A stretch of DNA of 64,000 nucleotides. Source: Ptychomitrium polyphyllum. Its lineage: Eukaryota. Made by a program: the position numbers and the translations under genes. Where the stretch lies: positions 1,984,001-2,048,000 of the forward strand of contig OZ316776.1 in NCBI GenBank assembly GCA_973851085.1, in the 5' to 3' direction. Positions 1-59,283 of the stretch are shown here, piece after piece (position 1 is the stretch's first letter; each line of letters opens with the position of its first letter). Below the pieces are notes generated by a model that was given only the letters and a program-made list of their open reading frames with translations, made no database searches and was not told where the DNA came from.

Positions 1-3000
1 AGGTTGTACTCGACGTTGGAATGTCCTTCCCATATCTTGACTTAGATCCTCCGTTACCGAGGGCTGAGAAAGTTGAGTTGGCTCAACAGATGCTGTTGTT
101 GATGAAGGCATGGCCGACTGCTCTTCACGCATATCCATGATAACACAAAGATTTGACATACTGGATAGGATCTGGAAATGATCTATCTTGGAAATAATGC
201 TGTATACAATTAGAGGTTTGGATATCTCTCCTCCCTTCTTATACTTCTCTATGAAGGAAAAACTTCTTTGTGGAGCTAACGGCTGCTGATGACACATCAT
301 CACTGACCTGGTTTCTGAGGATATCTTTGATGAAATTTGCGTACCTTCTCGGATGCATTTGTTACATTTGTTGAAGGTTCTCATGTTTGGTCATTGATGC
401 CATATCCTTGCCAATGTATAAGGTACTCCACATGTACGTTCTTGATGCGTGAATCTAAGATCTCTTCCATTTCATATTCAATTTCATTATTGATTTCCAA
501 CAAAGGAGGCGAAGGGACAATTCTCTCTGATATACATGATTTGTTATAGGTTTCCAACAACCATACGTGGAATACTGGATGAATTTGCATGCTCGGTGGT
601 AGCTTTAGGCAATAACTAACCGGATTTATTTATTTGCTAATTTCAAACGGTCCTAGCCTTTGATAGTCCAACTTCTTTGATGGTCTTTTTGTCTGTATAT
701 TTCGTCGTAGGAGCCATACGCTATCTCCAACCTTGAATTTTGGATGGTCCTTTCGATGGCGATCTGCATAAATTTTGTAACGATCTTCAGCTTGTTGTAA
801 CTGGAAAGTAATTTCTTGATGGATTTTAGCAAGTTGAATTGCAAAATCCTCTGCTGCGGGACTTCCAACATGCTTCACTTGAAATGGATCTGTTCGAGGA
901 TGATGGCCATAGTTTGCAAAGAATGGACTTTGAGTTGTTGAAGAATGCACCGTATTATTGTAAGCAAATTCTGCCAAAGGCAAGAGGTCCATCTAGTTGT
1001 CTTGTTGGTAGTTTATGCTACAACAAAGGTACTATTCCAAAATTTGATTTACACGTTCGGTTTGGCCATCAATTTGCGGATGGTGTGCTGAAGAAAAATT
1101 GATCTTTACACGCAACAGCTGGAATAGAGCCCTCCAAAAGTTGGAAATGAACTGCGGCCCTCGATCGGATACAATATCATCTGGTAGTCCACGTATGCGG
1201 TAGACGTGATTTAAGAACAACTTGGCAGTTTCTTCTCCCGTTATCGTCTTGTTGCATGGAATGAAATGTGCCATTTTGGTAAATCGATCTACCACTACCA
1301 AAATAGAATCCTTAGATTTGGAATTTGGAAGGTCCGTGATAAAATCCATTGATAAAGACAACCATGGGCCCTTTGGCACTAGAAGCGGATGGAGGAGACC
1401 ATGAGGTTGGTGTCTTGGTACCTTGGCTCTTGCACAAGTGTCGCATGATTGAACAAAGTCCTTTACGTACTTCCACATTTGTAGCCACCAATAGTCTCTA
1501 GCAATCAACTCCATTGTTTTATTGAATCCAAAATGTCATGCTGTTGGAAAATCATGACGTGCTTGAAGGATCTTCAACCGCAAAGAGCCTGGAGGTAGGT
1601 ACAAAAGTTCTTTATAATAAAGTACGTATTTTTGGAATTCAAAATCCTCATCGCTATTTGAAGGATTTCCATTGTCTTTGAGGCGCTTTTATATATTTGG
1701 AAAAAAGACGTCATTCTTTAAAGCCTTCCGAATTTTATCAAAATGGAATGTTGTCGTAATAATGGCTGCTTTCAATTGAAGATTCTCAGGCTTCAATAAA
1801 ATAGTCTTTTGTTGATTCAAAACATCATCTCCAAATTGAGGAGCTAAATAAGATCTTTGAGATAAGGCATCTGGCTTACCTTACAACCTACCAGATCGAT
1901 AGGTAATGACAAAGTCAAATTTGGAAACGACATACTCCACCTTGCTTGACAGCGATTCAAAATACGAGCGCTCATGAAATACTCCAAGTTTTTGTGGTCT
2001 GTATATATCGTGATGGTATGTTGAGCTCCTTCCAAAAAGTGTCGCCATTCTTCAAACGCATCCACAATTGCAAGTAGTTCTTTATCATGTATATTATAGT
2101 TGATCTCTGCCGCTGTGAACTTCCTTGAACAAAGGGCAAGAGGGTGAAGTCTCTCGTCTTCATCATATTATGAGAGTACTGAGCCAAGCGCAAAATCTGA
2201 GGCATCCGCTTCCAAATGAAAAGGCTTTGATGGATTTGGATGAATAAGAATTGGAACTGACGTGAATGACTTCTTAAGACTTTGAAATGCTTTTTCTGCT
2301 TCTTCATCTCAAATGAATTTTTGCTTCCCCGTAAGACGTGTCAATGGTGCCGCAATCTTGGAATAATTCTTGATGAATATTCTGTAGAAATTTGCAAATC
2401 CCAAGAAGCATTGAACATCTCGAATTGATCTTGGCGTACTCCACTTCGTGACAGTGCTTATTTTTTTCTTATCCATATGGATTCCTCCTTTGGAATTGAT
2501 GTAGTCTAAAAATTCAACCGATGATTCATAGAAAAGGCACTTCTCCAATTTGGCATATAATCCTCGCTGGCGTAGTTTTTCTAAGACCAATCGCACATGA
2601 CATTCGTGATCTTGTTCATCTTTTGAATATATCAAAATGTCATTTAAATAGATGACTATAAAATCATCCAGATGTTCATGGAAGATATCATTCATCATAT
2701 GTTGAAAGATTACGGGAGCATTAGTAAGGCCAAAAGGCATGACATTGTATTCAAAATGACCATACCTAGATTGAAAAGCTGTCTTCCATTTGTCTCCTGT
2801 TTTGATGCGTACAAGATTGTAGGCTCTTCTAAGATCAATTTTGGTGAATATCTTTGCTTGGCCAAGTTATTGTAGGAGTCCTAAGATTAATGGTAATGGA
2901 TAGCAATTTTTTTTTGTTACTTTATTGAGGCCTCAATAATCCTTGCACATACGTAATAATCCATCTTTCTTCTTTACAAATAGAATGGGTGCTCCAGCAG

Positions 3001-5039
3001 GTGATTTAGAGTGTTGAATGAAACCCTTTCCAAGGTTTTCATCAATATATTCTCTCAAGGCAGCCAACTCAGTTTGCAATAAGTTATAAATAGGTCCAAA
3101 AGGTGGTTGGGCTCCTTCTTGCAACTCAATGGTACAATTGTAAGGTTGGTGCTTTGGTAACATGTCCGCATTCTTCTTCTCAAAAACGTCTTTACAATGC
3201 TGATATTGACGAGGTATGTTTTGATTAGTCTCTATTATAGAGCTAGACATTGGTGTGGCATAAATGGCATAGATTGGTTCATCCTTCGCCGCTTTCATAA
3301 ATACCTTAGTTCCAATAACTGATGGTCCAAAATTTCTCGTACCTTGGCGTCTTTTCCTTGAGACCACACTCCGTGAGCGCCAGTCAATGTCTGGATTATG
3401 TAATTCATAACCAAGGAAGGCCCAAAACAATAGGATTTGTTCGGCATTGAATGATGTTGAAGACAATTTTAGATGTCTGGTTTCCTAAAACAACCTCCAA
3501 GGGTTGAGTTTCTTCAATAACGTTGCCAGACGCAAGAGATCGTCCATCAATAACTTGAATAGGTGCGGGATATTTTTTCTTCACAAGCACCATGTGATGT
3601 TTGGTTGCAAAATCCTTATCCATAAAACATACCGTTGCACCAGTGTCTAAAAGAGCCTTACTAATTATTTCATCTTATAACAATTTAATTTTGGTAGGAA
3701 ATGTAAAACAAGAGGTAGGGTTTGAAGGTAGCAAGAGACCTTGATTTGATGGTCGTTTCCTTGTGATGTCCAGTCGCATGGTTCCTACTGTGACTGGACA
3801 GCCTCATTTTATAACTCCACCGTTGTACTCTGAGCCTTAAAGGCAGATCCTTGATTTGGCATTCACGCACTTTATGTGCAGACTTGCCACAATACAAACA
3901 TAGGTTTTTTCTTCGACGCCTTTCTTTTTCTTTTGGAGTCAAACATCTGAACTGGGCAGCATCAATTTGCATAGGTTCTGGTCTTTGTGGTCGATTATCT
4001 AATATTCTTGAAGAAGTGGTAGCCATGCTTTGATGTACTGGTCGCCATCCCAAGCGTTGTTTTTGGCGCCTCTCAAATAGTCTATTGTCACATGCTATTG
4101 CTTGACTGATGAATTCGTCCAATGTTTCAACTCTTGGCATTGTGAGTAGTAAGTCCTTTACATTCTCTCTTAAGCCCCAACGGAATCGTGTGACCAAGGC
4201 TTTATCATTCCAATCAAGGTCGCAAGCTAATTGTCAAAACTCTACAGCATATGTAGCAGTTGAGTGCTGTCTTTGTTGGAGACTCTGGATCCTTATCTCA
4301 GCCACCCTCTCTTGGTCGGTGTCTCCAAAAGTAGATGTCAATGCTTCTATAAAACCATCTAAGTTGTTCAATAATGGTGACTGCTTCTCTATTAGTGGTG
4401 CAAACCACGATAATGCATTGTTTGATAAAAGAGTGGCCACAAATCCCACTTGAGTTGTACCATCAGGATAGTGAAATTGATGCAAACTAAGAAAAAGTCT
4501 TAGTTGTTGAACAAAGCCTCTCAATTTTGATCTTGCTCCATCGTACTTGTCTGACATGCTAATCTTTGGCTCTGCATGGGTTTGGCGTAAGGCTTCACTT
4601 CCAATATTGACCTCTCGCAATCAAACAACCTCTTGATATAGACTTTGAATATCACCATTGAATTCTTCAGCTTGCTGAGTATGGTTCTCCAAATTGTTGG
4701 TGGTATTAAAACTGGCGAGTTCTGTTCAAACTGTATTTAATAACTCTTGGAGGTCTGCAATAGTTGCAAACCTATTCTCTGATGTTCCAGGCACGTTATC
4801 CATTTCTTAAGACTCTCAAAGACAAAAAGACTATAAGTACCTTCAAAGGAGGAAAATCCACGACCTATGAAAGAAGTAATACTTGGTTCTAGAAGGATAA
4901 ATCAACTATATGGTGCCAGTGTAGAGGAGGTTAATCCACAACCTCTAAGACGCTATGGAATCCTCAAGAAGATGGGTAATCCACAATCTTCTTCAAAGAA
5001 CCTTAACTTTGACAAAAATGAAAAGTAGTTTTGCCAAAC

Positions 5040-16377: not shown

Positions 16378-19300
16378 ATGGGGGACAACCCTAGTCAGAA
16401 GCAGCGGGGGATGGGCAAGCGAGTGTACCAAGTCTGGAAGGGCAGCAATGTAAGTCGCCTGCCACTCGCCGTGTGTTTGTTTGGCTGTCGTAGCTTGAGA
16501 GTGTCTCTTCCGAGCGAGTGCTCGGGAGGGCTTCGCCGATGGTCGGTTTCGACACCTGGGCTGTGTGCAACAGCGTCGCGCCGTCGTCGTCGGTGTCATC
16601 GGGACGAGCTGCTACGTCACTCGGTCGTGGCGTGGTCGAATGTGACCTAGTAGGGGTCTCTGTGCCGGTGGAGTTGCGCGTGTGGTGGAATGTCCGGTGT
16701 TGTGAATCCGGAGGTCCCAGGTGTGAGGTTGGCAGTCGGGATCTGTTGTGTGGGCGTGCAATTGTCCGTGCGAAACGGGAGGGAGGGGTTTTTCGATTGT
16801 GGCCGAGCTGAGCATCGCAGGGTGTACTGCAATGAAGTCATGAATGAGGCGGTACGTTAGGGGTAGGTCAATGAATGAGAGGGAGTGACGGAGTGGCCCT
16901 CGCGGGCAATGCGCGGTGCGCGGCTGAGTTCGTCTCTTCGGGGTGGGTTTCCGGGTTGCGACGGTCTCCCGGATGGCTCGCGTTTGGGGACGGATGGCGA
17001 GTGCAGGGCAGAGATTGTTGTGTGCACATTGCACATCCAACGTGTGTCGGGGATGGTGGTGGAAGATGAGGGCTTTCATGTATATTGTGAGGTTTCCATG
17101 TAGCTGGGCGGGTGGCAGGAGCGTGGTGGGAGCTGGCGTCCACCGTCGCATGTGGTGGCTAGGTGCACACGGTATCGGTCGTTGGTTAGAGCGAGTGTTG
17201 GGGGCAGCTCGGGCAATCCCGAGTCCCGACCCGGATTTCGAGGGAGGGGATGCTGTCGGAGATCCGTTTCCGGGTTTTTGGGAAGCTCGCAGGAGAGGGC
17301 GATGGTGGAGTGTTGAGTTGTGGGACGGTTTGAGCGCATGTGGTTAGGGGTTTCGTGTCGAGTTTGGCAATGTGCAGATCCCTTTGCATGGGAGGGCCAA
17401 GCACATGGAGCGACGAGGGCAGGCGTTGCGGGGACGATGGTATGGCGGAGGGGATTGCCTGTGTGACGGGCAGGTCCAGTTAGGGGTCTGGGAACTGGGT
17501 GGTGCGGACGAAGTGCATGTGTGGGGGCACGCCCATTGTGGGGCGTGCGTGACCTAGTTTCGGAGGTGGGCGCGGTGAGGATGGGCTGATCGATGTGGAA
17601 GTGCTTGGTGTGCAGAGGTTCTTTCTCTGCGGGAGGTTGATTTTCGGTCCGGACGTGCGGTCGCTGGCGGTGACGGTGTTCCTGATCGTGGCGCCGGCAG
17701 TGTGCTTCTGCGTGTTCGTGGGTCGTCACTTGCTGAACCACTTCGACAACCACGCGGGAATCGCGATCGTTGCGGTGACTGTCATCTACACTGTCTATGT
17801 AAGTCCGACACGAACTGGTGCGCATGGGCCTGGTCGAGGAGGTGCACTGTGTGCAGTTTCCTGGGTCGAGAGAGTGTCGTGGCAGGGACCTTGGGGCTGT
17901 GGGGCTAGCCGGAAGTGGTGATGGATGGTGCGGTTGCTGGGTGTGTGTTGGGTGTGCATTCCGGGCGATGGTCTGACCGGAGTGTGGGTGATGATGGGAG
18001 GCAGGTGCTGATATTGCTGCTGTTGACGTCCGGAAGGGACCCCGGGATCATCCCTCGCAACTCGCACCCGCCGGAGCTGGAGGACGACTTTGATCCGAAC
18101 CAGTCTCCCGGGGACTGGGGAGGGCAGACGCCGCGGCTACGGCTGCCGCGGACGAAGGATGTGATTGTGAACGGCGTGTCGGTGAAGACGAAGTACTGCG
18201 ACACGTGCATGCTGTACCGTCCACCGCGGTGTTCTCACTGCTCGATATGCAACAATTGTGTGCTGCGATTCGACCACCATTGCCCTTGGGTGGGACAGTG
18301 CATCGGGCAGGTAGGGACAGGCGGTGCTGTAGTGTCCGGGGGATTTCTTGGATCTGGTGGGTGCTTTGGGGTCGTGACGCTGTGGGCAGTGGGAGCTTCT
18401 GCGTTGTGGCAGTGATGAGTGGTACGGGAGGGTGGGAGGATTGGTGGAGGTGGTAGGTTTGAGTGCGTTTGGAGGAGGCGTCGGCATTGGTGGTTGTGTT
18501 TGTGTCTTCCTGATGGTGGGCGGTGTGTTTGGTGGCGTTTGCAGAGAAACTACCGGTTCTTCTTCATGTTCGTGTCGTCGACTTCGTTGTTGTGCGTGTA
18601 CGTGTTTGCGATGTGCGCACTGTACATAAAGATCCTGATGGACGACGGGCATCGCACGGTGTGGCGGGCGCTGTCACGGTCTCCGGCTTCCATCGTGCTG
18701 ATGGTGTATACGTTCATATGCGTGTGGTTCGTGGGTGGGCTGACGGTGTTCCATCTGTACCTCATTGGTACAAACCAGGTGCGTGCTTCTGTTGGGCGAG
18801 GGGTCGCCGGTGGGTGTGGATTGTAGGTCGTGAGTGGGCACACGGTTGAATGGCATTTAGGCTTGTTTGTGGGGGGTTGTGGGTGCGGCTTGTGATTTGT
18901 TTGGTCCGTTGGGGGAGCGCGGCTTGAGGAGTGTGGGTTGTGGTTGTGGTTGTGGTGTAGACGACGTATGAGAACTTCCGGTATCGGTACGACAACAAGG
19001 TGAACCCTTACAACCGAGGGTGCGCGAGCAACTTCAACGAGATATTCTGCACAAAGATCCCGGCTTCAAAGAACCGGTTCAGGAGCAGGGTACAGGAGGT
19101 GATTCCGGGGCAAATGGGGGCGGCGCAGGCGGCGGTGGAGATGGGAGAGGTGCAGGGATCGGGGGCGGGGAAGGGGCCGGACGTGGAACAGGGGTACAAG
19201 GCGACGTGGCCAAATGCGGAGGAGATGGTGGGGGAGGGGGGCGAGGTGGAGATGGCGGGGGGCCGGGTGAGCACGGGGAGTGAGCTGGGGATGGAGATGA

Positions 19301-19527
19301 AGGACGGGTTCGACATGCATGGGGTGGAGCAGGGTCGTCCGGCGGTGGCCCACCCGCGGCGGTCGAGCTGGGGGCGGAAGAGCGGGAGCTGGGAGATCAC
19401 CCCGGACATCCTGGCGATGTCGTCTGGAGAGGGCGGGCAGGGGCACAGCAACCATGCGCATGCGCACGGGCACGCGCACGCGCCGGGCCGTTTGAATGGA
19501 GAGACAACGCCTCCCGGGAATCGATGA
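16378..19527 (+). CDS. DHHC-CRD protein S-acyltransferase (plant PAT8-like), 5 exons, 453 aa
   Basis: Exons 16378-16449, 17616-17798, 18005-18310, 18545-18778, 18961-19527, all GT-AG and phase 0. Motifs [87 protein letters not shown]. Confidence 0.95.
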
Positions 19528-22500
19528 TCCAGGTTCGTCATCGCAGAGGCGGAGGCGAGTTGAGAGAGGAAGGGGGGCAGGGGGTGGGCGGGTAGAGTGG
19601 GGTGGTAGGGAGGGGCGGGGCGGAAGGCGGTCTCGAGGTGCAGATCAGAAACCCCGTGGAGGTGATGGGGGCGACGAGCGGGGTGGTGTGGAGGAGATGC
19701 ACTTGTAGAATAAGTTCTATGGACACGTTGGCCGGAGCGAAGGCGGGCGCGCGTGACGTTCGGGGAGAGTGTGTCGTCATTCGGGAGCAAGTGGCGGAGG
19801 GCAGTGGAGCGACGGTCCCAGCAGCAGGCGCGGCGTGGGTGGTTGTGACGCAGAGCAGCAGACGACCGAGGGACCCTGTAATTCGAATCTGCAGGCAGGC
19901 GGGGGTCCGAGCCGGTTTCATGTGTTTGTGTTTAACACTGGAGCCGGGCGTGTTTCGTGTTGTTGTGTTAAGCCTCCGGTGGGTGACTGGCTTTGCTCAG
20001 GTATTTTTATTTGAAGGTGGCTCCGCTGGCAGTGCGCAGTGAGGCTCGGTGATTGTAATGTATTGCTTGTTATTAATTGGACAAACCTATTGATCTGTGA
20101 CCTATATCTTCCGAGCATCTTGTTGGTTCATTATATGGTGGTCGGAGTTGATGGCAGGTGTTTTTGGTTTACTTCTGTGTTTGCTTTTTTTCATTGGTTT
20201 TTGTGTCGTGTTAATCGAAGATCATTAGTTGAATGTGATGTTTTGTTGTTTTTGTCTTTTTTTTTAGCTTCTTTACTGCGTTCTACTTTTGTCGTGTTGT
20301 GCAGTTCGATTTTCTCGTGTCTTGTATGCATGATGTTGTTGTGGCGGTATATGTTTGTTGGATTGCTGTTGTCACTGTGTGCTTCGTTTGAGTTTGGCTG
20401 GTGTGGATGTGGAGGTTCATGAATGGGTTAGGCTATTTTTTAGTTAATATTGTGGAATAGTTGTTTCATTTGAGAATATGGTTGGCACTCGGCAAGTGGT
20501 CTTTTTCAGAGGGTTGAACAGTATTTGAGTCGATGTATATGCGTTCCACTTGGTCGGTGCATACTAGGAAGTGTAGCTGCTGCATGCAGCTTTGGTATAT
20601 GATTTGGTGCAGGGATAGTTTGCAACAGCTTGGGACATTCGTATTCGAACACCTAAATTAGACATGTTAGTTTTCGACCAGCTCGCTCATCTTCCTAGGC
20701 TACCGTTACGTTTGAATTTTTTTGGAGAGTCGGTATGCTCAGTGCTAGCTTCCATAGTGGTCGGCGTGGAAGAGCCTTTTTGATCTTATCTTTGCATGGC
20801 TAAATCGTGGGCTTTGTGAAGGTGTCAGCGAAATGTTGTCCATCACATTATGGACGATGATGGAGCTATTGCCTGCCGAACGCAGTGATTTGAAGCATTA
20901 CACCTCCTAATGGAGGCTTTACAATTTTCACAGGAAGTTGCTTGGTTATCAAAAATGAAAACGCACTTAAAACGAAAAATAATCAAAAGGAGTAATTCGG
21001 ACTGAGAAGGAGAATGCATTCCATCAGAACGAAAATCCATAAGGAGGGGAGAACTATCGAATCCTTGAGGAACGTAGGGAAGCGGAATCCTTTGGAAACG
21101 TAAAGAGGAGCCTTTGACGAGCTCCGTTTTGTACATAGTTTTCCTAGGAAAAAGTTTAAGCAGGAAAGAAAAGTAGGAAATACTGCCTGGAGGTATACTT
21201 AGTAACACACAGAAAAGCGTTGTTTTGCCACGTTTTTTATAGTAGAGTGAAATGGGAAGCTATCCCTTGTAACATCTGTCCACTTCAGCAGGGATGGTCA
21301 GATTTAGTTGATAAGCAAAAGCTTAGGAAATGGAGTTTAACAGGTAAGTTGGGTTGAGCCAATGCAGTGACGTTGATGAGCACACGGAGCAAAGTTGCAG
21401 ACTAGGACCAGTTTTGATGAGTACACATTTATCATTTGTAAGGTTGAACCAATTTAATGGAATGTTTGGAGGAGATGAAATTCAGACTTACCTTATATTA
21501 TTGGAAGATCCAAAATTTAGGAGAACCTTTGGTTAGCACTTCATCATAAAATCTTTTTTGTGAGTTTGACACGGAGTATGGTATTAAAATGGATGTGTTA
21601 TATCCCATAATGTGATATGTTCCGGGTGTTATATCCCACGTTTTGTCATATCTAGCATTGTGTCATATCCCACATTAGATCTTAATAACAAAATGACAAT
21701 AAAATGATTGATTTAAATGTTATCAAAATAACACCAATTTGTCAATCAATCATTATGGTGTTAAAATGACATTGAAATCACATTTTATGTGATTTTGAAG
21801 TGATTTTGAATTCCTATTGATATAATTTTAATCAAATTTTAATCAAAACAATATTTGATAGACTATAGATTCTGCATTCTTATGAAAATTGTTGAAATAT
21901 TTTCAAAAAAAGAAATCTGTTATATTCTACAATTTGTTGTACATTGTCATAATTGTTTTATATGTTTTGAAACATTTATGATTTATTCTATAAATATCCA
22001 AAAAATACATGGCAACTACAAGATTAACTACCTAAATGTTTTCAAAAATTTCCACACAAACACTAAATCATAAATGTTTTTCAACTTTTTGTTTATTTAA
22101 GTCATCATATGTTTAAATTTTTGAATTTCGAAAAATTTAAATATTTGAATTTCGAAGTGTACCAAATCAACACAGTTGCCTTATTGCCGTAAAGATCGCC
22201 TTCCACCGAAAATTGCACAAATTAAAGTTTGGAAAGGTAATTTACAATGAAAAGTACCATTAAATGGCAAACTCAATTGTCTATATCCAATACAAAGAAT
22301 CACTCACTGAATTTTACCATATTCTTAGAGTAGAAATACAAAATTGTTAAAAGAGACCACTCTTTGGTCTTCTTAGACTTCGAGTTAACCTGTTATGGAG
22401 GATTATGGAGTTCGGAAACACTCAGCTCTTGTCAGAAACCAAAGAGCTCTTCTCGTGGATGATGATCAAGGGTCCTAAAATGTAATTTTTAATCTTACAA

Positions 22501-22639
22501 CATGCCAACGAATCAAATATTGACAAATCGCGAGACATCATTCAAAGAGGCCAATCCACTCATATCGTGAAGCAGATCCAAGAGGAATTTTCTTACGACT
22601 ACAGCTCCTAGCCAATCCTTCTTTAAAATGAAGTCCATT

Positions 22640-23462
22640 GACTGACATGACAACCAGTTGTCTGCACCTGTACAATAGGATGCGTATGGGAATTCTCAAT
22701 GGCCACCCCCTGAAGCTGAAGATTCGTTGCTCGCTCTTCAACCTCAACCCCTCAGTGACGACCATGATATAGGACCCTAACGCAGGGACATACTTCCTGC
22801 CACAGCTCTCTCCAGCAACATACAGAGGCCTCGATCTGCATCCCCGATCGCCAAAGAAGAAAACAAGAGTCTTGTAGAGGTCAAGTGCGACTTCACACTG
22901 GTTTGAGACAATGGTATCAAGATGGTGCTATGCTAATCCTGACCCTGCAGGGTTGTCAATGAAGAGCAACCCAAAGTGTCTGTTCCAAGGAGTGGTTTTC
23001 TTGTGTAGCTCCACATCCTCTTCTACCCTCATGGATCTAATTCCCAAAATTTCCTACCAGTCTTGAACATCCAGGACCTCCCTGCACACTCGATCAAAAC
23101 CTACCTGAACTCCTGATCATTGTAACTCTTTCTCCGAAATATCACCATATCCATATATCAAAAAGATGTTGTGAAACACTTCTAAAGTGCAGAGCATGAT
23201 ATTGTACCTGTAACCAAAGAATGACGGGCGTATTTGAGAGCTCGTCGGTAGCCTCAAGCGCCTCTTAGTACACCAGAAACATACTCGACGCGGTGGAAGT
23301 GTTCACGTCAATGTAGCCACTCCTCATCGGCAACGCTTCTTCAGGTACCTTGTATGAGTGATCACCTTTAGCTAACCATGATGACAGTATCACCACGAAA
23401 ACAAAGGACAACTTGACTGCATCTTGAACATCGTGAAGAGAAAATGGATCCGCCATCGCCAT
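22640..23462 (-). pseudogene. Serine carboxypeptidase-like (S10, SCPL50-like) unprocessed pseudogene
   Basis: Signal-peptide-like start, PEEALPMRSGYIDV, premature stop at 23265-23267, PVILWLQ|GGPGCS across an intron at 23082-23207, WNRHFGLLFIDNPAGSG, RPLYVAGESCGRKYVPALG; further frameshifts; C-terminal half not recognisable. Confidence 0.85.
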
Positions 23463-23863
23463 TCTTTCTCGAGTAAGATCGATCTTTCTCCAGGAAAGTA
23501 CAAGGTCATCGGCTATAGATCACTCCAATAAGGCAAAAACATTCCATGACCCTTAAACCTAAACAATACTGTGTCTTGCAAAGGAAGAAAGCATCCTCCC
23601 CACAACTTGAGAATCCTCACCATCCGCTGCTTGAAATCATCTCTTTTGTTAATCTTGTATAAGAAAATGTGGTACTTCAGCTGATGACCGTGAAGAGCAA
23701 ACTACAGTTCTGCAGAGGAATAGATGCTGATGTCCGGCTGAGGCCGGATGATATCTGGGTGAGATATGGGTTAGGTCATGCCCGACGATGGCAACAGTGG
23801 ATAAGGAGAGCGCCAAGTAATCTGCCAAGTAGTCGCGAGCTTGGTGAGCTTGGGAGAGATGAG

Positions 23864-25138
23864 ATGGTGAGGGGGTTGGCGAAGGCCCTGCGGGGAGCGA
23901 GCAAGGCCGACAAGAAGCAGAAGGAGGAGTACGAGGAGGGGTCGGTGTCGTCGCGCGAGGGCTCCTTTGGGCCGCGCTCGTTTCCGCACGATGTGAAGGA
24001 GGCATGCTGGGCCAAGGCCGAGACCGTCAAGGGCCGCGACCCCGCCCGCTGGCGCCGCGATGCGCTGGGCAACATCGTGTTCCGCAAGCTCGTGGGATGC
24101 CAGGGCTGCCTATGCCACGATTACGACCACATCGTGCCCTACTCCAAGGTGGATCACCCTTATTCTCAAGCCCTCATTCCTCCTCTCCTGTCTGCTGGGC
24201 TGCTGGAAAATGTCGCCCATTGCAAATGTCTACGTGTTTATTTGTAGATTGTAGCATTGAATTGAAATTGACAATGGCCTCACACAATTCAATTCAAGCG
24301 TGGAGGAGCCGCGGCGGATGTGCCCAGCGAATAATCAAGTGCCTGCGTCGTATGCCTCTGAAAGTTTGAAGAGTTTCATTTTATGTACACTTTTAGGGGC
24401 TGACGAAGGTGGTCTGGTTGCGTGTGACAGGGGGGTCCCAGCACTCTAGACAACTGCCAGATTCTTCAGGTTGTTGCAAAACCTCAGTCTCTGCACTTCT
24501 AACTTCTTTTGCACAAGCTAGTAGCCCTCCTTTAAGCCCTAATACAAAATGGACTTTAACATTTGAGACCTTGGAGAATTCGGTGATAGATATTTGTACT
24601 AGGGGTGGTGTGTTTGTGATGTGTTTGAGATGTGTCGAAGATGGTGATCCGGCAGCCTTGTGCACAACTGACTGCCGAGAGTGTTGCAGGCACCAGCGAA
24701 TCGTGCTAAGGGAGCCCGGATGAATGTGTCGAAAACTGAGTTGCAGCAACGTAGTGCATACTGCTCTTTGTCAGGTACAGAAAATGACGGTCCTTTTTAG
24801 TTTTTAGGGTTCAATTTGAGTTGGAAGTCTTCCTGTGTTCCAGTTTATTTGTGTGCGTGGGTTTTAGGTGTTTTCATTTCGAATAGCTGGATGTAGCGCT
24901 TGCGACCAGTTGGAATGACTGGTAAGGTAATAGAATATCGCGGTTTCTTGCAGTACTCTGCTGATGAAGAACGTTAGATTGGAAGAGAGAATCACGTGGT
25001 TGGTGCCCATCAATTGGCTTGAATCTAAAGGCTTTTAAGTGTTCAGGACGGGAGATGGATTTTGTGGAGCTATCGGCCTACAATAATGTGCACCACATTA
25101 AGGACGATGAAGGAGGTATTGGCTGTCGAATGCAGTGA
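23864..25138 (+). CDS. Plant HNH-endonuclease-domain protein, 4 exons, 166 aa
   Basis: Exons 23864-24148, 24431-24469, 24690-24774, 25047-25138 (GT-AG, frame kept). PRSFP..CWAKAE.VKGRDPARWRRDALGNIVFRKLVGCQGCLCHDYDHIVPYSK|GGPSTLDNCQILQ|APANRAKG; ends GCRMQ*. Start ATG chosen by plausibility; upstream in-frame starts exist. Confidence 0.9.
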
Positions 25139-47208: not shown

Positions 47209-50092
47209 ATGGGTCGCGGGAAAATAGAAATTAAGAAGATAGAGAATCCCACTAGTAGGCAGGTCACATTTTCCAAGAGGAGAGGCGGGCTGCTCAAGAA
47301 AGCCCATGAGCTCGCCGTGCTGTGCGATGCCGAAGTGGCGCTCATCATCTTCTCCAGCACTGGCAAACTCTTCGAATTCGCCAGTACAAGCAGGTAGGAT
47401 CATATTGTTCTACACCGCGTAGTGAGGCAGGGCACTATCAATGTCACACCCTGCCAATCTCATCACCCCTCTCGAGGAGCCACACAATTGTTCCCCTTCC
47501 TCTTCCACCATCATCCTCCGGGATTTCAAATTTTCCAAATTTAAATCATTTAGAACTATGCTGTGTAGCCTTTAGCTGTCCTCAATCATGAAAATAGTGA
47601 CACTGATTCTCTCGCCCTCCACCCTCTGGTGCAATCCTCTGCTGAGTTTCCTTTGTTGAGCTTTCGGATGGCCATGCTGTATGTAGAGCGTCTCCTTTTT
47701 CTTATCATGATTCCATAGCGATGGTTCCAAGTTTTTGGTTTTTCTTCCCACTTCGGACTTAGGGTGGAGTACTATCATCGCTCAAATTTTCTCCTTGGCT
47801 ATGACCTCTCCATTTTTTCAGTAGCAGCTGGACGATGTCGTATATCACTCATTTAGCTGCAACTTTGACGTCGGTATTTGCAGACCGGTAGTTTTTTGTT
47901 TTGAGGTTTAAAAACCCCATTACATTGGCTCAAAATTAACTTAGCGTGCAGCACCGTGCTCGGAGGTTTGGTCGACATTGCCAGTGTGCAGCTTTCTAAG
48001 AGAGTACTCTGAAGAGGCCAATGTTATGAAAATTTACACTCTTTAGAACGTAGAAAAATATATTGGAAATTTTGATCCTAATACCTTGGAAAACGAGAAG
48101 CTTTTGCCGATTTTAATAATCATCTTATTGAATTAATCATTTGATTCCATTGATACCAAATTCCCAGTGACGACTAGTTTTTGTGTTAGGGTTTATAACC
48201 ATCATTAGGAGATAATGCATCATTGGAGTTCTTGTTCTGTTCACCTGTACTATTTCATCCCAAACCTTTTCTTAAGACCGTGTTTGGAGGTTCTGATCTC
48301 TGCTAGCCATTGTACATTGGTGCTGTGTAGCATGCGCGACATTCTCGAGCGGTACAGCAAGTGCCCAGATGGGGTCCAGACTGGCGGTAACAGCGACGTA
48401 CGTTCTAACCGAACTTTATATCAGCACCTTTAACAACAATCTGAATAGCTCTGCTCAATAGAGACTCCACTAATTAATAAAATTCCGCTGGATCACTGAC
48501 AGTCTTGTGTGGTCATTGACAGTTCATGGGCCGCGAAGTAGTGAAGCTAAGACAACAGTTGGAGCGATTGCAGCATTCGCAGAGGTTAGAGAACTACTCC
48601 ATCACCGAAGGCATCTGATTATATTAATTTTTGAGTCCACATTACCATGACTCGGTTTGTATCCTTACAAGGATGTGGGTGGTATTGCTATAGGCACATG
48701 CTTGGTGAGGATCTCCAAGTCTTAACGGTGCCCGATCTGCTACAGTTGGAGCAGCAACTGGACATGGGTGCTTCAAGAGTCCGAGCAAGGAAGGCAAGTG
48801 CCAGGTTGTTAGTAAGGATTAAATTCCAGATTACAAATCAATAGTGTCACAGAAGCAGTGAAAAAGCTGGGTCGTTTATGAACATGAGTTCTTGGATTAA
48901 TTTCCCATTAGACTTACTGCAAGTACACACTACTGTAGCTCTCTGTACCTTAAGCTGCGTCTTCACTTCGAGGCTCCCACGTGGGTCTTAGTGACACCTC
49001 TACTTGATAGTAATACGACTTATTCAAGCCCATCAAGCCATAATTATTGGGTCGCATAGAGAATACAAGTTCTTCACATTCGAAGAATCTTTGGAATTTT
49101 GAGAATCACCGTCAGGTAGGTCATAGCTGGCAAACTGAAGTATTAACGCTTCGGAAGTCTTTTATCTTTTGCAGAACCAGCTTTTACTGGAAGAAATTGA
49201 AGAGTTACGCAATAAGGTGTGCTCTTGCTTTCTTTTTCTCTCTAGGAAAATCACTTCCCTGAAGTGCAGATTCAGCGTCGTACAGTTTATTTCATTCATT
49301 CAACTGATGTATCATGGGTTTCTCTGTGTTTCCAGGAGCGAGATCTGGCGGCCGAAAATGAAGCGTTGCGTCAGAAGGTACACTACTCATTCTCAATTTC
49401 TATACCGAGCCAGTGACTACTTATCTCGGTATCAAGGAAAATTAATATAAAAATGTATTTCCATCTTGAGACAACAATGTGTTAATGGATTGTTCATTAG
49501 TAGTGTTACGTGTATGGTACATTCCGGACCAGAATAGCAACTGACGAAAGTGTCGGTGATTGTGCTTTGTTTAGCTTGCCGATGCGAAGGGAATGGTTGA
49601 AGCTGCAGCCCGTGGCCCTACCTCATCAGGAAGTCCCGGTCCAGTTGCCATTATGCAGGCCCATGAGGCTGGTGGGAGTTCACAGGCACTCACTGTGTAC
49701 CCAACACATCCCAATCTCCGAGACCCACAGACCTCTCAAACCTCGTTACATCTGGGGTGAGCCTGCACTCATTTATACCCTCTTTTTCTGGTAACGGTTT
49801 CTGATAAGGGATTTTATGATTAGGCTAATCTCATCTAATTAAGCATCTGGGATTGATTTGTTTTGTGTATTTACAATAGGTTATTTCCAGAATCCTTCAT
49901 GCCAAGCACAAGCCGAAGGCCGTCCCAGCAAAGTCCAACCGAGCCAGAAGGTACAATAACTCAATTCCACTTCGTGTTGCTTTTCTATTACTTAAAATGA
50001 ACTAGTGTTAAAATAACTTTGAATTCGTAATACTGATTGCAGGTGAATCTCCGATGAGATGGGATCACCCACACTATCGAAGCCAGAAATAG
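47209..50092 (+). CDS. MIKC(C)-type MADS-box transcription factor (moss PpMADS-S-like), 9 exons, 266 aa
   Basis: Exons 47209-47393, 48331-48397, 48523-48584, 48694-48793, 49175-49216, 49336-49377, 49575-49756, 49880-49950, 50043-50092 (801 nt, frame intact). [36 protein letters not shown]-box [31 protein letters not shown]; classic 62/100/42/42-nt K exons. Confidence 0.95.
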
Positions 50093-53419: not shown

Positions 53420-54044
53420 CATACAGGTATTTGCACCCAACGACGCCACTTCATGACTCTGCAACAAGCTTCCATGTCGTTCTGGTTTCGATGTGACCTC
53501 CGTTGTTGATCTGGTGAAGGACCGACGTTCCATTGCAAGGCGTGCCAGTTTGATCTGCACCCGGTGCGAGTGGAGCTACCGCGGCGAATCTTGCAACTTC
53601 GACTTTGAACGCCAGCTGCGAGAAGCTGCACGAGAAGATTTTGACTTCTTTCCGTCCTCCTCTGAAGCTGCTGCTGGAGAAGTCGCCGTACCTCCTGCGG
53701 CGCTTGCTGTGTGATCTCTGCGACGAGCGCATGCCCATGGCGGCTGGGTGCATCGTTGTATGGATAGCAAGTTTGACCTGCATCGTTCCTACGTCCTGTT
53801 TCTTTCCGACATGCTCTGTCCTGCCCATCCGCACTGTCTCACGATCAGCGAGTACCGCACCTACCAGAGCGAGAGATATGTGTGCGATGTGTGCCTGGAA
53901 TTCTTTGGCAAACTTGACTTCCTGTGCAACAAGTACCTCATATCCTCCTTGCCAAGTTCCTCCACAACATATGCTCAGGTTCACAGTCGGGGCCGCTACC
54001 CTACCATATTGTATGACCCTACTTACAATGTGGACATAAGGTAG
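53420..54044 (+). pseudogene. Cys/His-rich DC1 (C1-like) repeat pseudogene
   Basis: Frameshifted FRCDLRC*SGEGPTFHCKACQFDLHP, LLCDLCDER..HRCMDSKFDLH and HPHCLTI..YVCDVCLE motifs. Confidence 0.7.
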
Positions 54045-55190: not shown

Positions 55191-58100
55191 CTAAAATCGA
55201 TTTGCTGTAGCAAAAGGTCTCTCAAACGAGGCATTATTATACTTGTCCAAGTCTACCACAAGCCCACGCGGCACACGATTAGGAGCACTTGCTCGTTCTA
55301 TTGCAGAAACAAACTGATTAGATAGCCTTCTAGCAGCCCATGTGCGTTGCCATGGCTTCATTTGCACCACCTGTTTAGCAACCAAGAGAGTCAAATCAAA
55401 CTCAGTAAAATTGTGGATCAAGTACCTATTTGAAATGACAAACCGACCCAACAGGAAGTCTGCTTTAGTGAACCATTTTGTCAAATCAGCATGTACATGT
55501 TTCAACTCCGGAATGGCATGACTTGATCTTTCTGAAACTAGAGAGCAGTGTCGAAAGTTAAACTCCAGAATCCAACATAAGCTTAAAGACCTTCAAAAAG
55601 ATCCACTTTTGGAAATAAATAACCTACCTCGTCAGCATTGAAACTTTCCACGATGATACCACCACGACGAGGAACCCCAAGCTCTCGCCAGTCCATCTGG
55701 AACTGCCCAAAGGCCTCTGCAAGCTCCTGTATAAGCGAGAAAAACTAGGATGAATTATGCAAAGACATCTAACATTTGATGCTTGGTGGCCACCCCGCCC
55801 GTCGTTCATGCAGAATCGCATACTTCTAACGAACACACAGCTGCATTTAAATTTACCGTCGTGTAATGGCATCTCCTACCTTACTGAGCGGTGCATTCAG
55901 GTCACCAATAACTCCAAGAACATGGCCCCTATAGTCAGCATTGGAGCCCTGCATAATTTCGACGAAGTCCATCAGAAAGACAAATCTCCATAGCTCAACC
56001 CTTACCCATATCTACACATCCTGACTGAATTTTTAAAAATTGAAAATATGGTAGAAAGTTAGAGCACGGCGTAGGCACATGATAAATTCAGATCACATGA
56101 AGATTTCATCAATATTGTTAATCAAAATAGTTAATCTAGAGGAGAACAAAACCGCACCTGCCCATGAATCTCCAGTACAGGAATGCCGTTCAAAGTCTGC
56201 AACCAGTATCACCAGTCAGCATTTCTAATCCGTAATGACGGATGATGCTGACGTTCAATTACTTTAAAAATATTTTCTATATTCATATTAAGGAGATTCT
56301 GTAAAATACAAGGACATATTTCTGATTCTGGCGTGAGTACATGGTGTTTCAACCCGTATGGATGAATTTTTACACACCTGTTTTGAAACCCAATTGAGAT
56401 ACTCTTCCCATTGTATTTGCGGGGCATCACGGTCGGGCCGTAGAACCTCCCACCCATTCTTTCGTAACTCCTTCTCTAACACATTCGCTACCTGCAAGAT
56501 CAAATCTAATAAATGCAGGATTTCACCAAATTGAGCCTCTTGCTGCATATCAGAAAGGCACTCTGAAGGCATCAACGTAGCACAAATAGCCTGTAGACTG
56601 CTCTTAGGTCAAACTTTGGAAAAGGCAGCATACATCCATATTGAACTCGCGCTCCCCAGGTGCTCCTGGTTCGGATTGGCAGTCAATCCAATGACCAGGT
56701 ACCACACTGATAGTATCTTTTGCTCCAATAAAACTAGAAGCTTGTCGGTACACAAAAGCAGATTGAGGAGTTTCTCGAAGCGCCTGCATCAGCCATATAC
56801 CTCTTAGTATTCATGAAGCAAGTTCCTTTCCCAGCTCCAAGCAATCTTTCAAGGTAAGAGAGGCGGCCCTCGTCACCCAGTTATGTCTTGAAATATCTAT
56901 ATGAACTTGCAAGGCAGCAGTGAGATTGAAGAACTTACACGTGTCCCAAAGATCTGTGATATCTTCAAATAACTTGACCTGAATTGGATAGGCAGTTTGC
57001 CCTTCCTGATAGGAAACTCACCCAACAGAAAATCCGCTGGCACTCTTGCTGAGCCGGCTGCTACCTGGAAAATACATCAAGTAACATTCGCTTCTAAGAA
57101 GATATTACACGAGAAAAAGGTCCTATGCTCACAATCAGAAAAATGATTGATATCTTTCAAACAAGACTTACACCTGAGCTTCATGCCAAGACCTTGTAGT
57201 GAAATGAAGCCTTCAGTGAACCAGCATTACAGACTTCATATATGTATGAAAAGAAGCAAAATGAAGCAACTTACAGCTTTACAATCGTTGGAGAGCTTCA
57301 AGGTCTTAGAGTAATGGATATCCAGGCCATTCTTCACAGGCTCCACCACCAGCTTTGTCTGTGCAGGAAGTGAACACAAGTATCAACAAGCCTGGGGCTC
57401 CTCGTATTTCGAATGATCAGAAATACACGTATGCAAAGCCTTGTTAGAAACCAAGTACATGCCCTTACCACATCTTTGAGCCAATTAAATTGCAAATTCC
57501 AGCATGGTCCCTTCTTGAATGGCACCTGTTTCCAATAAACCAACTTCATTTTAGAGTAGATAGTACAAAGATTTATAAAAATTCCGAATAAACACATGTT
57601 GTACACAAACCCAATTCTATATATCAAGCAGCGTTAAACAGTTAAACGCCGGTCTACCTCCAGGTTGGCACTTAGAGTAAGGGTTGTTGCACCGACAGAA
57701 AACTGACGCTTCACCGTTAAAACAGGGACAGGCAGAAGCTCCACAATTGGGCGTAAGGCTGCAGAGCCCACCAAATATATGCCCTCCCCAGGTCAGAATC
57801 ATACCATAATCTCTTTCCCCTTTCCTGACAAGGCCCAGGCAGCATGAATGCATACAGCTCACTACAACCCCTTCAAGCATATATTCATTATGCACAGAAT
57901 ACATATCCCACCTAGATATCCAAAAATTGAACTCTTTGATTTGATGCAGACGTGAGGAAAGAGACGGAGTGCTTTGCTTCCAGAATTCTTCACAGAGTCG
58001 TCGCTTGTTACTTTTTGATGGTCTAAGCGAGCATCCACTGTAAAACCAGTCTTAATGGACAACGGAATGTATTGCCACCGCCACCTAGCATCCTTGTCTA

Positions 58101-59283
58101 CATAGACACATATTTGTAACAATCGTGTCAAAGTCAAAGATGCCAACGTCGCTACATAAAATGCCAACCGCAAGGGAAGAGGTCAAAAATCGTGATGCTA
58201 TATGCATGTTATGTTAGTCTTAGAGCTTACTAGGCTCGTATGCAGGTTCACCTTAACGGCATTGAACTGCTCAAAGAATCCTCCCAAAAATCCCGGCCTG
58301 AACTTCCAAAGCCTTCACAAGTACTCAGCCCCACTACTTGCGAACTCTCCTGCTAAGACCTCTACAGACTTAGGTAGCCCAAAAAACCAATCTCGATTAG
58401 TAAAACTTGGGTTCGGTTCCATTTGTCCGATGCAGGGTGCCTTCTATACCAACAACAAATGTATCAAGTGAAAAAAGCCCTGTAATACGTCCACCGAAAT
58501 CATCATCATCATTACGATACTAATAAAATAGTGAACCAATTCAGCTCCAAAACAGCCTCCGGATTCTTCAAATAGGGTTTTCCTGTACATGCTGCTCGAA
58601 CTCCACCTGTACGGATGCCCACACAACAAGAAAACTTGCCAGTTTCATAACGAGAAAAGACAAGGATTGGAAGGGACCAACCAACCTAACCCCAAGCAAT
58701 TCGGCAATGTGACCGCCCTTTGCAGTTTCAGTTGCAACCCAGGACCCGTGTTCAACTGAGCTCCTACTTTCCACCTGTATTCCTGCAAGAAAAAAACAAC
58801 AAAAGTAGGTCTTGGTTACAGTGGTCGCTTCAAAGCCCTCGAAAACTAACTGAGGACGCTCTCATGGATACGCCATTCTTACCAAGATCTCACCATCTCC
58901 TACACTCTCCAGAATCACAAAGCTCCTATTCTCCCAAAACTAAACTTCACAGAACAGCATGTAATTTTCCATTCCGCAACAACAAACCATCATTTCTCAG
59001 CTGGCTGCGTTGGTGTGAGACGAGAACCCAGTTCAAACCTAAGAATTTCTCGATTGGCACTAAATCACTACTCCCGTGAAGGTGAATAAGATGATCCACA
59101 TCCGTGGACCCCCGAGAAGAAAAGAAGTTGTGTTGATTCTGGAATTGATGAAACCTTTCTTACCTGGCCGAGGAGCTTGCCGTAGAAGGGAGGCGGCAGG
59201 TAGAGCGGGTGCGGCTGCACGAAGCACAGGCTCCCCACGCAGGCCTCTCTCTCCACGCCGTCGTCGTCAGTGCCGCTTGTCAT
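55191..59283 (-). CDS. Multi-exon gene: beta-strand-rich central domain plus C-terminal N-acetylmuramoyl-L-alanine amidase (Amidase_3-like) domain
   Basis: Twelve GT-AG exons give 429 aa without a stop: 58349-58252, 58084-57912, 57758-57658, 57525-57469, 57358-57275, 57064-56939, 56783-56634, 56491-56378, 56196-56158, 55948-55880, 55726-55628, 55370-55191. Probable first exon 59283-59164; exons at about 58782-58690 and 58605-58520 have unresolved frames. Motifs VVPGH, GEREFNMDVA, VLEIH, GIIVE. Confidence 0.8.

What the first reader, a model, noticed from the sequence alone, without database searches (positions are those of the whole stretch)
55191..56783. Intron-rich nuclear gene encoding a bacterial-type peptidoglycan amidase (Amidase_3) with intact catalytic residues
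Seen: six small phase-0 exons splice to ..DTISVVPGHWIDCQSEPGAPGEREFNMD|VANVLEKELRKNGWEVLRPDRDAPQIQWEEYLNWVSKQ|TLNGIPVLEIHGQ|GSNADYRGHVLGVIGDLNAPLSK|ELAEAFGQFQMDWRELGVPRRGGIIVESFNADE|VVQMKPWQRTWAARRLSNQFVSAIERA. The ORF track shows only unconnected fragments of this. Established: Amidase_3 enzymes (AmiA/AmiC/CwlV) bind Zn through His (xxxPGH), Glu (ExxxNxxxA) and His (xxIH), and use a catalytic Glu (xxxE). All four are present in order. Moss plastids retain a peptidoglycan layer needed for division. Inference: this is a plastid peptidoglycan-splitting amidase, possibly of cyanobacterial origin (the LEIH and LGxPRRG..E variants recall cyanobacterial sequences). I do not know of a characterised plant member, but novelty is unverified.
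Basis: partly seen in the sequence, partly recalled or inferred. Interest (0 to 1): 0.92.

Follow-up and report, generated by a model that had tools for sequence, protein, structure and literature searches.

The report
Barrel-anchored chloroplast wall-cutting amidase
A 13-exon moss gene encodes a bacterial-type cell-wall-cutting enzyme domain fused to a predicted membrane barrel, which likely anchors it in the chloroplast's outer membrane to cut the relic bacterial wall that mosses, ferns, gymnosperms and some green algae keep around their chloroplasts.

Summary
The six exons are real, but they are only the 3' half of a 13-exon minus-strand moss gene (59283-55191, 473 aa, 93% identical to Ceratodon proteins).

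The C-terminal domain has the Amidase_3 fold. Its best structural match is AmiC, and His288/Glu301/His356/Glu408 align with the sites of canonical amidases. Pfam scores stay below cut-off.

It is a predicted 12-stranded outer-membrane-type beta-barrel (matches KdgM Z 13.5, chloroplast OEP21 Z 11.6), and the N-terminus does not look like a transit peptide.

The family runs from prasinophytes to Ginkgo and Taxus; none of 25 identifiable hits is an angiosperm. The nearest non-plant relatives are cyanobacterial and cyanophage proteins, several fused to other peptidoglycan hydrolase domains.

Best reading: an outer-envelope-anchored plastid peptidoglycan amidase facing the intermembrane space. Location, activity and a role in division are untested. 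The papers I could search describe no such protein, and one earlier search reported no plant Ami homologue.

The parts
59164..59283 (-). Exon 1 (start codon; acidic N-terminus, conserved Cys pair and Pro/Tyr-rich stretch; not like a transit peptide)
58686..58782 (-). Exon 2 (predicted barrel strands 1-2)
57912..58097 (-). Exon 3 (predicted strands 3-4, variable loop)
57658..57758 (-). Exon 4 (predicted strands 5-7)
57469..57525 (-). Exon 5 (predicted strand 8)
57275..57358 (-). Exon 6 (predicted strands 9-10, start of 11)
56939..57064 (-). Exon 7 (predicted strands 11-12, end of barrel)
56634..56783 (-). Exon 8 (linker; start of amidase domain; predicted Zn ligands His288 at 56693-56691 and Glu301 at 56654-56652)
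56378..56491 (-). Exon 9 (amidase domain)
56158..56196 (-). Exon 10 (predicted Zn ligand His356 at 56166-56164, in an ExH motif)
55880..55948 (-). Exon 11 (amidase domain)
55628..55726 (-). Exon 12 (predicted catalytic Glu408 at 55648-55646)
55191..55370 (-). Exon 13 (C-terminal helix, low-confidence tail, stop codon)

Best explanation
The gene encodes a 473-aa two-domain protein whose predicted 12-stranded beta-barrel likely sits in the chloroplast outer envelope and holds an Amidase_3-fold zinc domain in the intermembrane space, where it would cut the MurNAc-L-Ala bond of plastid peptidoglycan. Shown: gene structure, fusion on spliced mRNAs of relatives, and conservation of the four active-site residues. 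Predicted: both folds. Inferred: insertion as a barrel without a transit peptide; both termini on the intermembrane side, as in OEP21; Zn held by His288, Glu301 and His356 with Glu408 as general base. It lacks the long insert of AmiC, so the membrane tether rather than an activator would likely limit it to the outer face of the wall. It would loosen or split the wall from outside as the envelope grows and constricts, most likely in plastid division alongside DipM.
For: Fold: AlphaFold model of P0002, pLDDT 82. Foldseek ranks 1-3 are AmiC 4bin (E 8.6e-5), 3czx and LytH, with outer-membrane barrels from rank 4. VIA-align, residues 279-446: CwlD Z 12.7 (rmsd 3.0, 157 aligned), Ami1 12.3, CwlV 11.9, AmiC 11.6. 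VIA-align, residues 39-258: KdgM Z 13.5 (rmsd 3.3, 156 aligned), designed 12-strand transmembrane barrel 12.6, OEP21 11.6 (rmsd 3.9, 145 aligned), against LolA-like 8.0. Sequence: a profile of 10 relatives hits the endolysin CD27L at E 3.6e-4 with all four residues aligned. H/E/H/E is kept in 66 of 67 rows that include 6 canonical amidases, and in 135, 136, 140 and 140 of 140 partly redundant domain rows. Guilt by association: of 10 bacterial- or phage-type relatives scanned, 7 carry M23, LysM, RlpA-like or glucosaminidase domains above cut-off. Barrel: hydrophobic/polar alternation 0.50 against 0.19 +/- 0.04 in column shuffles, 0 of 10,000 reaching it. The three most length-variable loops lie opposite the termini. 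OEP21 has both termini in the intermembrane space (PMC10279527, passages). Distribution: 25 of 38 hits can be assigned to an organism, all bryophytes, lycophytes, ferns, gymnosperms, streptophyte algae or Pycnococcus, none an angiosperm. Chloropicon primus has it and is listed as likely having peptidoglycan (PMC10784329).
Against: There are no localisation, activity or mutant data. PF01520 is below cut-off in all 37 members scanned (22 match weakly, best E 0.0045), NCBIfam gives nothing, and the plant-only profile finds no PDB amidase. I could not read model coordinates, so I did not verify that the hydrophobic face points outward. The ESM Atlas links of the barrel to OEP24 and DUF7781 score under 0.9. 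Co-occurrence is imperfect or untested: Asparagus and Citrus are reported to have the full toolkit but no hit is named from them, and no hornwort, Chara, Klebsormidium or glaucophyte is named. 13 of the 38 hits are unnamed. The barrel HMM does not detect the N-termini of Chloropicon or the long prasinophyte-like forms, and three short relatives from green-alga-like contigs have no barrel.
Confidence: 0.68

Rival explanations
1. Same enzyme and place, but its job is wall turnover rather than division: it thins or perforates plastid peptidoglycan for envelope growth, passage of TOC-TIC or lipid bridges, or fragment recycling, and the barrel may export the released peptides.
For: The barrel's polar face is biased to K/R (24% against 10.5% D/E), like the positively charged pore of OEP21. 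No AMIN, LysM or SPOR septal-targeting domain was found. DipM already hydrolyses murein and is needed for moss plastid division (PMC4015805, passages).
Against: Loss of Mur or PBP genes in moss gives macrochloroplasts (PMC9434261, passage), so wall enzymes tend to show division phenotypes. No channel data exist. This rival overlaps the best explanation in location and chemistry.
Confidence: 0.15
2. The protein is a peptidoglycan hydrolase aimed at bacteria (defence or sensing), or sits in another membrane; the beta domain could be a soluble lipid-binding half-barrel.
For: Close non-plant relatives include cyanophage virion proteins. A LolA-like fold matches at Z 8.0. Location is not shown.
Against: The N-termini of most full-length members are acidic, with no signal-peptide-like stretch. 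Closed 12-strand membrane barrels match better. Mitochondrial VDAC and Tom40 have 19 strands. The apparent loss in angiosperms follows plastid peptidoglycan rather than immunity.
Confidence: 0.09
3. The zinc site has been redirected to a non-peptidoglycan amide or peptide substrate at the envelope, or it binds the wall without cutting and tethers the outer envelope to it.
For: The domain is very divergent from canonical amidases (12-20% identity in structural alignments) and has family-specific motifs such as PGHWID and EIHGQG. How the outer envelope is tied to the wall is an open question.
Against: The catalytic Glu is kept in 140 of 140 rows. Relatives with the same motifs are fused to other peptidoglycan hydrolase domains.
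Confidence: 0.08

Closest known systems
Amidase_3 N-acetylmuramoyl-L-alanine amidases (PF01520): E. coli AmiA/B/C, Nostoc AmiC2, CwlV, CwlD, LytH, Rv3717, CD27L
   Same: Same predicted fold and the same His-Glu-His-Glu order and spacing in the first half.
   Different: Below the Pfam cut-off; a separate subfamily from 6 canonical outgroups (100/99 support, with a long-branch warning). ExH motif as in CD27L rather than SIH. His356-Glu408 spacing is 52 against 108 in AmiC, so it lacks the insert recalled to be autoinhibitory. No AMIN domain; fused to a beta-barrel; nuclear gene with 12 introns.
Divergent cyanobacterial and cyanophage amidase-like proteins (Ancylothrix sp. C2 NG798_25845; Synechococcus phage S-H9-1 QPB08112; Microcystis phage MaMV-DC ORF95)
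   Same: Closest non-plant relatives: profile-profile probability 99.7%, 34% identity over 155 columns. The Ancylothrix model matches Nostoc AmiC2 first (E 2.8e-6).
   Different: They have a short hydrophobic N-terminus or are parts of large virion proteins with M23 or RlpA-like domains; none has the barrel. I found no sign that they have been characterised.
Chloroplast outer-envelope barrels (OEP21; OEP40, OEP24, DUF7781)
   Same: 12-strand barrel fold match to OEP21 (Z 11.6); no transit peptide expected (recalled).
   Different: No significant sequence match (DUF7781 E 0.006 in 1 of 37 members). Carries an enzyme domain; the passages I saw of the COB preprint on chloroplast barrels mention no amidase or hydrolase.
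Known moss plastid peptidoglycan hydrolases and associated proteins: DipM (LysM + M23), PPASP (transmembrane helix + LysM); MltB and VanY (recalled from Utsunomiya 2021, not readable)
   Same: Nuclear-encoded proteins that act on or near plastid peptidoglycan, with a similar distribution.
   Different: Different folds and bonds. The DipM paper found Ami homologues in cyanobacteria but only DipM in photosynthetic eukaryotes.
Inverse autotransporters (intimin/invasin) and barrel-plus-enzyme proteins such as EstA and AaaA
   Same: A 12-strand outer-membrane barrel joined to a functional domain (5g26 Z 9.7, EstA 11.2, AaaA 12.2; that 5g26 is an intimin barrel is recalled).
   Different: Those display the passenger outside the cell; here the domain is inferred to stay on the intermembrane side. 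No sequence kinship was shown.

Membership tests
Amidase_3 (PF01520) | Pfam gathering score (27 bits) | tested here: not met
   13.8 bits for P0002 and 15.3 for P. patens; 22 of 37 members match weakly, best E 0.0045.
Amidase_3 (PF01520) | Alpha/beta zinc-amidase fold | tested here: met
   Predicted model; Foldseek ranks 1-3 are amidases; VIA Z 11-12.7, rmsd about 3. Other Zn hydrolases rank lower (3a9l Z 8.1).
Amidase_3 (PF01520) | Zn ligands His, Glu, His and catalytic Glu in order | tested here: met
   H288/E301/H356/E408 align with AmiC, CD27L and four other canonical amidases; 66 of 67 rows. Their roles in the canonical enzymes are recalled.
Amidase_3 (PF01520) | Hydrolyses the MurNAc-L-Ala bond | not testable with these tools
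   Needs an in vitro assay.
AmiC-type septal amidase | AMIN domain and autoinhibitory insert | tested here: not met
   No AMIN hit; N-terminal domain folds as a barrel; His-to-Glu spacing 52 against 108.
Chloroplast outer-envelope beta-barrel (OEP-like) | Amphipathic antiparallel barrel | tested here: met
   12 long strands, barrel matches Z 11.6-13.5, alternation beyond all 10,000 shuffles. The direction of the hydrophobic face was not checked.
Chloroplast outer-envelope beta-barrel (OEP-like) | Sequence homology to a named OEP family | tested here: inconclusive
   ESM Atlas 0.83-0.84 to OEP24 and DUF7781 clusters; DUF7781 E 0.006 in 1 of 37.
Chloroplast outer-envelope beta-barrel (OEP-like) | Resides in the outer envelope | not testable with these tools
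   Needs fractionation or imaging.
Plastid peptidoglycan gene set | Co-occurs with Mur/PBP genes across green plants | tested here: inconclusive
   Hit list agrees broadly with published distributions; no genome-by-genome profile was possible.
Endosymbiotic gene transfer from cyanobacteria | One plant clade with a cyanobacterial sister group | tested here: inconclusive
   Base of subfamily unresolved; eukaryote rows one clade in 0 of 300 bootstrap trees but not rejected, p-AU 0.39.

The most novel reading that the evidence does not exclude
An early green alga fused a cyanobacteria-derived peptidoglycan amidase to an outer-envelope beta-barrel. This made a single-chain, membrane-integral wall-splitting enzyme, unknown in bacteria, that couples the outer envelope to the plastid wall during division. 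It was kept from prasinophytes to gymnosperms and lost with the wall in angiosperms, which makes it the missing plant amidase and a marker for which plastids still have a cross-linked wall.
Probability: 0.5. Interest if true: 0.92.

Novelty: new variant of a known kind. Interest (0 to 1): 0.85.

Why it matters
Plastid peptidoglycan is needed for chloroplast division in moss, but the known toolkit is mostly synthetic. An earlier search found no Ami-type amidase in photosynthetic eukaryotes, and the same paper named the coupling of outer envelope and wall splitting as open (PMC4015805). This gene supplies a candidate for both in one chain, in species with routine knockouts (P. patens XP_024400487; Marchantia MPTK1_4g21500). 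It also adds a candidate outer-envelope barrel family that carries an enzyme, and a marker for the disputed question of whether seed plants keep a real wall.

Tried and rejected
No whole genome is held, so copy number and the Mur/PBP/DipM genes of this organism were not checked. No RNA holder was listed. The two runs laid cover the gene without joints, look genomic, and may be the window's source.

Blank searches:
- plant-only profile against PDB sequences
- NCBIfam, 0 amidase hits for 6 proteins
- GTDB genome scans for bacterial relatives, two scans with no confirmed locus, so no survey across cyanobacterial genomes was possible
- viral contig scans
- plasmids
- the Ancylothrix protein against phages
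- PF01520 in phage S-H9-1
- earlier scan findings by sequence and by words

Rejected readings: that the upstream exons are a separate gene (one ORF in transcript-sized contigs of relatives); bacterial contamination (12 spliceosomal introns, plant neighbours); an amidase-only gene starting in exon 8 (such short models exist for Ceratodon, P0012 and P0015, beside full-length ones); an AmiC orthologue.

Complex prediction was not run because no binding claim is made.

Full report
OBSERVATION. The six exons lie on the minus strand exactly as reported, with five GT-AG, phase-0 introns of 142-257 nt. A search with the first of them returned ~470-aa moss proteins. Mapping these back revealed seven more exons. 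The full gene has 13 exons, runs from 59283 to 55191, has 12 GT-AG introns and encodes 473 aa; it is 92.6-93.4% identical to Ceratodon-cluster proteins, 81% to P. patens, 51% to Marchantia and 49% to Selaginella. P0002 comes from contigs of at most 2,040 nt, and a P. patens form from 309 contigs of at most 2,050 nt, against a 4.1-kb gene, so the fused ORF exists as spliced mRNA in relatives. No RNA run of this organism was listed; the two runs laid show no joints and may be the window's source. The neighbourhood is plant nuclear DNA: Ty3 remnants, a DHHC acyltransferase and a MADS box. That the organism is a moss near Ceratodon is my inference from identity.

C-TERMINAL DOMAIN. Sequence libraries barely see it. 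PF01520 scores 12-15 bits against a cut-off of 27, 22 of 37 members match weakly, NCBIfam gives no amidase for 6 proteins, and the plant profile finds no PDB amidase. This likely explains why it is annotated as uncharacterised. An AlphaFold2 model of P0002 from 33 sequences (pLDDT 82, pTM 0.73) gives AmiC, a Neisseria amidase and LytH as Foldseek ranks 1-3. It gives CwlD, Ami1, AmiP, CwlV and AmiC at Z 11.6-12.7. A profile of 10 algal, bacterial and moss relatives hits the Amidase_3 endolysin CD27L at E 3.6e-4 with all four residues aligned. His288, Glu301, His356 and Glu408 are kept in 135, 136, 140 and 140 of 140 partly redundant domain rows; four rows are truncated and one has Arg for the first His. 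They share columns with six canonical amidases, 66 of 67 rows in all. The His-to-catalytic-Glu spacing is 52, against 108 in AmiC and 60 in CD27L, so the insert that I recall as AmiC's autoinhibitory helix is absent.

N-TERMINAL DOMAIN. The model has 12 long strands between residues 43 and 255. They match 12-stranded outer-membrane barrels: KdgM Z 13.5, a designed barrel 12.6, NalP 12.3 and chloroplast OEP21 11.6; LolA-like half-barrels reach only 8.0. Across the alignment the strands alternate hydrophobic and polar columns (0.50 against 0.19 +/- 0.04; 0 of 10,000 shuffles), and the polar face holds 24% K/R and 10.5% D/E. Among 25 full-length rows, the three loops that vary most in length (7-54, 6-19 and 10-35 aa) are on the side opposite the termini, while connections on the termini side are nearly fixed. 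That is the usual outside/inside pattern of such barrels (recalled). With an even strand count the amidase emerges on the termini side, and OEP21's termini are both in the intermembrane space (PMC10279527, passages). Most full-length members start with an acidic stretch unlike a transit or signal peptide (judged by composition, no predictor run). ESM Atlas leads for this domain are plant and algal clusters, DUF7781 and OEP24, all under 0.9. I could not read coordinates, so membrane insertion is inferred.

DISTRIBUTION. Of 38 hits of 259-825 aa, 25 can be assigned to an organism (18 by name, 2 through, 5 from gene-ID prefixes as I read them). They are mosses, liverworts, lycophytes, ferns, Ginkgo, Taxus, Zygnematophyceae, Mesostigma, Chlorokybus and Pycnococcus; none is an angiosperm, and 13 are unnamed. 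A full HMMER scan of 1.84 billion representatives gave 141 hits, among them Chloropicon primus and Picocystis salinarum. The barrel HMM detects Mesostigma, Chlorokybus, Pycnococcus (E 3e-47) and Picocystis (1e-7), so the fusion likely predates the chlorophyte/streptophyte split. It does not detect the beta-rich N-termini of Chloropicon or of the long prasinophyte-like forms, nor any bacterial or phage row. Published lists give peptidoglycan toolkits to bryophytes, lycophytes, streptophyte algae, Chloropicon and M. pusilla, and only four genes to most angiosperms. They also give full sets to Asparagus and Citrus, which are not among my named hits (PMC10784329, parts 1-2 of 3; PMC4815162, passages). 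The match is suggestive but was not profiled genome by genome.

ORIGIN. The nearest ESM Atlas clusters for the amidase domain are mostly Cyanobacteriota (top score 0.95). The only named bacterial relatives are from Ancylothrix sp. C2; the profile match is 99.7%, with 34% identity, and its model matches Nostoc AmiC2 first. On a metagenome contig a close relative follows an ORF that I read by motif as an M23 peptidase. Among 50,697 phage records, 11 of 12 weak matches (E up to 1) are cyanophages, 13 of 13 with the S-H9-1 domain as query, and the best viral structural match is that S-H9-1 M23 protein (E 1.9e-8). Seven of 10 bacterial- or phage-type relatives scanned carry M23, LysM, RlpA-like or glucosaminidase domains above cut-off. 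A tree of 45 rows (22 of 67 near-redundant plant and algal rows dropped; labels of unnamed rows are my guesses) separates this subfamily from six canonical amidases at 100/99, with a long-branch warning, and leaves its base open. The eukaryote rows are one clade in 0 of 300 bootstrap trees, as two long bacterial-type rows fall inside, but that clade is not rejected (p-AU 0.39). No cyanobacterial AmiC was in the tree. A cyanobacterial origin by endosymbiotic transfer is likely but not shown.

MECHANISM. Most likely the barrel inserts into the plastid outer envelope and presents a zinc amidase to the wall from outside. There it would remove stem peptides and so loosen or split the wall as the envelope expands and constricts. 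The lack of an inhibitory insert suggests control by tethering. I put this at 0.68. Turnover or perforation without a role in division gets 0.15, an antibacterial role or other location 0.09, and another substrate or a pure tether 0.08.

LITERATURE. The DipM paper found Ami homologues in cyanobacteria but only DipM in photosynthetic eukaryotes, and left open how outer-envelope constriction is coupled to wall splitting (PMC4015805, passages). The word amidase does not occur in the main text of PMC9434261, PMC12681378, PMC13650779, PMC13519894, PMC4815162 or the COB barrel preprint (term searches). PMC9954125 uses bacterial AmiC only as a probe. Searches combining amidase with chloroplast or plastid peptidoglycan terms listed no paper describing such a gene (listings seen; one search was a broader listing). 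Accession and DUF7781 searches were blank, as were four supplements of PMC11135702. Subscription papers are not held, including Utsunomiya et al. 2021 on moss peptidoglycan hydrolases (from memory it covers MurJ, MltB and VanY). The COB supplements are closed and may list this protein as Unclassified. Novelty is therefore likely, not proven.

VERDICT. A real, conserved gene.

Noticed in passing
window 630-4620 (-): Fragmented Ty3/gypsy retrotransposon: gag/capsid, reverse transcriptase and integrase pieces.
   Followed up: partly
window ~17550-19530 (+): DHHC palmitoyltransferase gene in an unusually GC-rich block (62-63% against about 40%).
   Followed up: partly
window ~22540-22930 (-): Serine carboxypeptidase S10 fragment, weak match at E 1.3e-4.
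   Followed up: partly
window 23663-24247 (+): ORF with a Cys/His motif that looks to me like a plant HNH-endonuclease domain; no Pfam hit at E 0.01.
   Followed up: partly
window ~47240-47397 (+): MADS-box (SRF-TF) exon, E 7.7e-27.
   Followed up: partly
window ~53450-54040: Cys/His-rich stretch split across + strand frames, perhaps a degenerate C1-like gene; no Pfam hit for the two ORFs tested.
   Followed up: partly
proteins P0060, P0062, P0074: Unnamed 1,100-1,180-aa relatives, prasinophyte-like by my reading: beta-rich N-terminus, long charged coiled coil, then the amidase and a C-terminal GCSxSGC motif. That motif is also in Picocystis and Chloropicon but not in streptophytes.
   Followed up: partly
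proteins P0075, P0148: Algal-type copies with altered motifs; P0075 has Arg for the first His and may be inactive.
   Followed up: no
L003:1161-2108, L004:942-1697: Short barrel-less relatives (about 230 aa) on GC-rich contigs next to a eukaryotic-looking gene (SPEF1-like, recalled).
   Followed up: partly
L001:2700-5612; L007:2292-3857: Cyanophage baseplate-region proteins carry the same divergent amidase domain unannotated (S-H9-1 QPB08112; MaMV-DC ORF95), suggesting an unrecognised virion wall hydrolase.
   Followed up: partly
protein P0153: A 1,244-aa unnamed NCBI protein with LysM domains and this amidase domain at its C-terminus; host unknown.
   Followed up: no
window 59164-59283 (-), exon 1: A Cys-x4-Cys-Phe hairpin followed by a Pro/Tyr-rich stretch is conserved across streptophytes ahead of the barrel; it could be a plug or a disulfide.
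   Followed up: no
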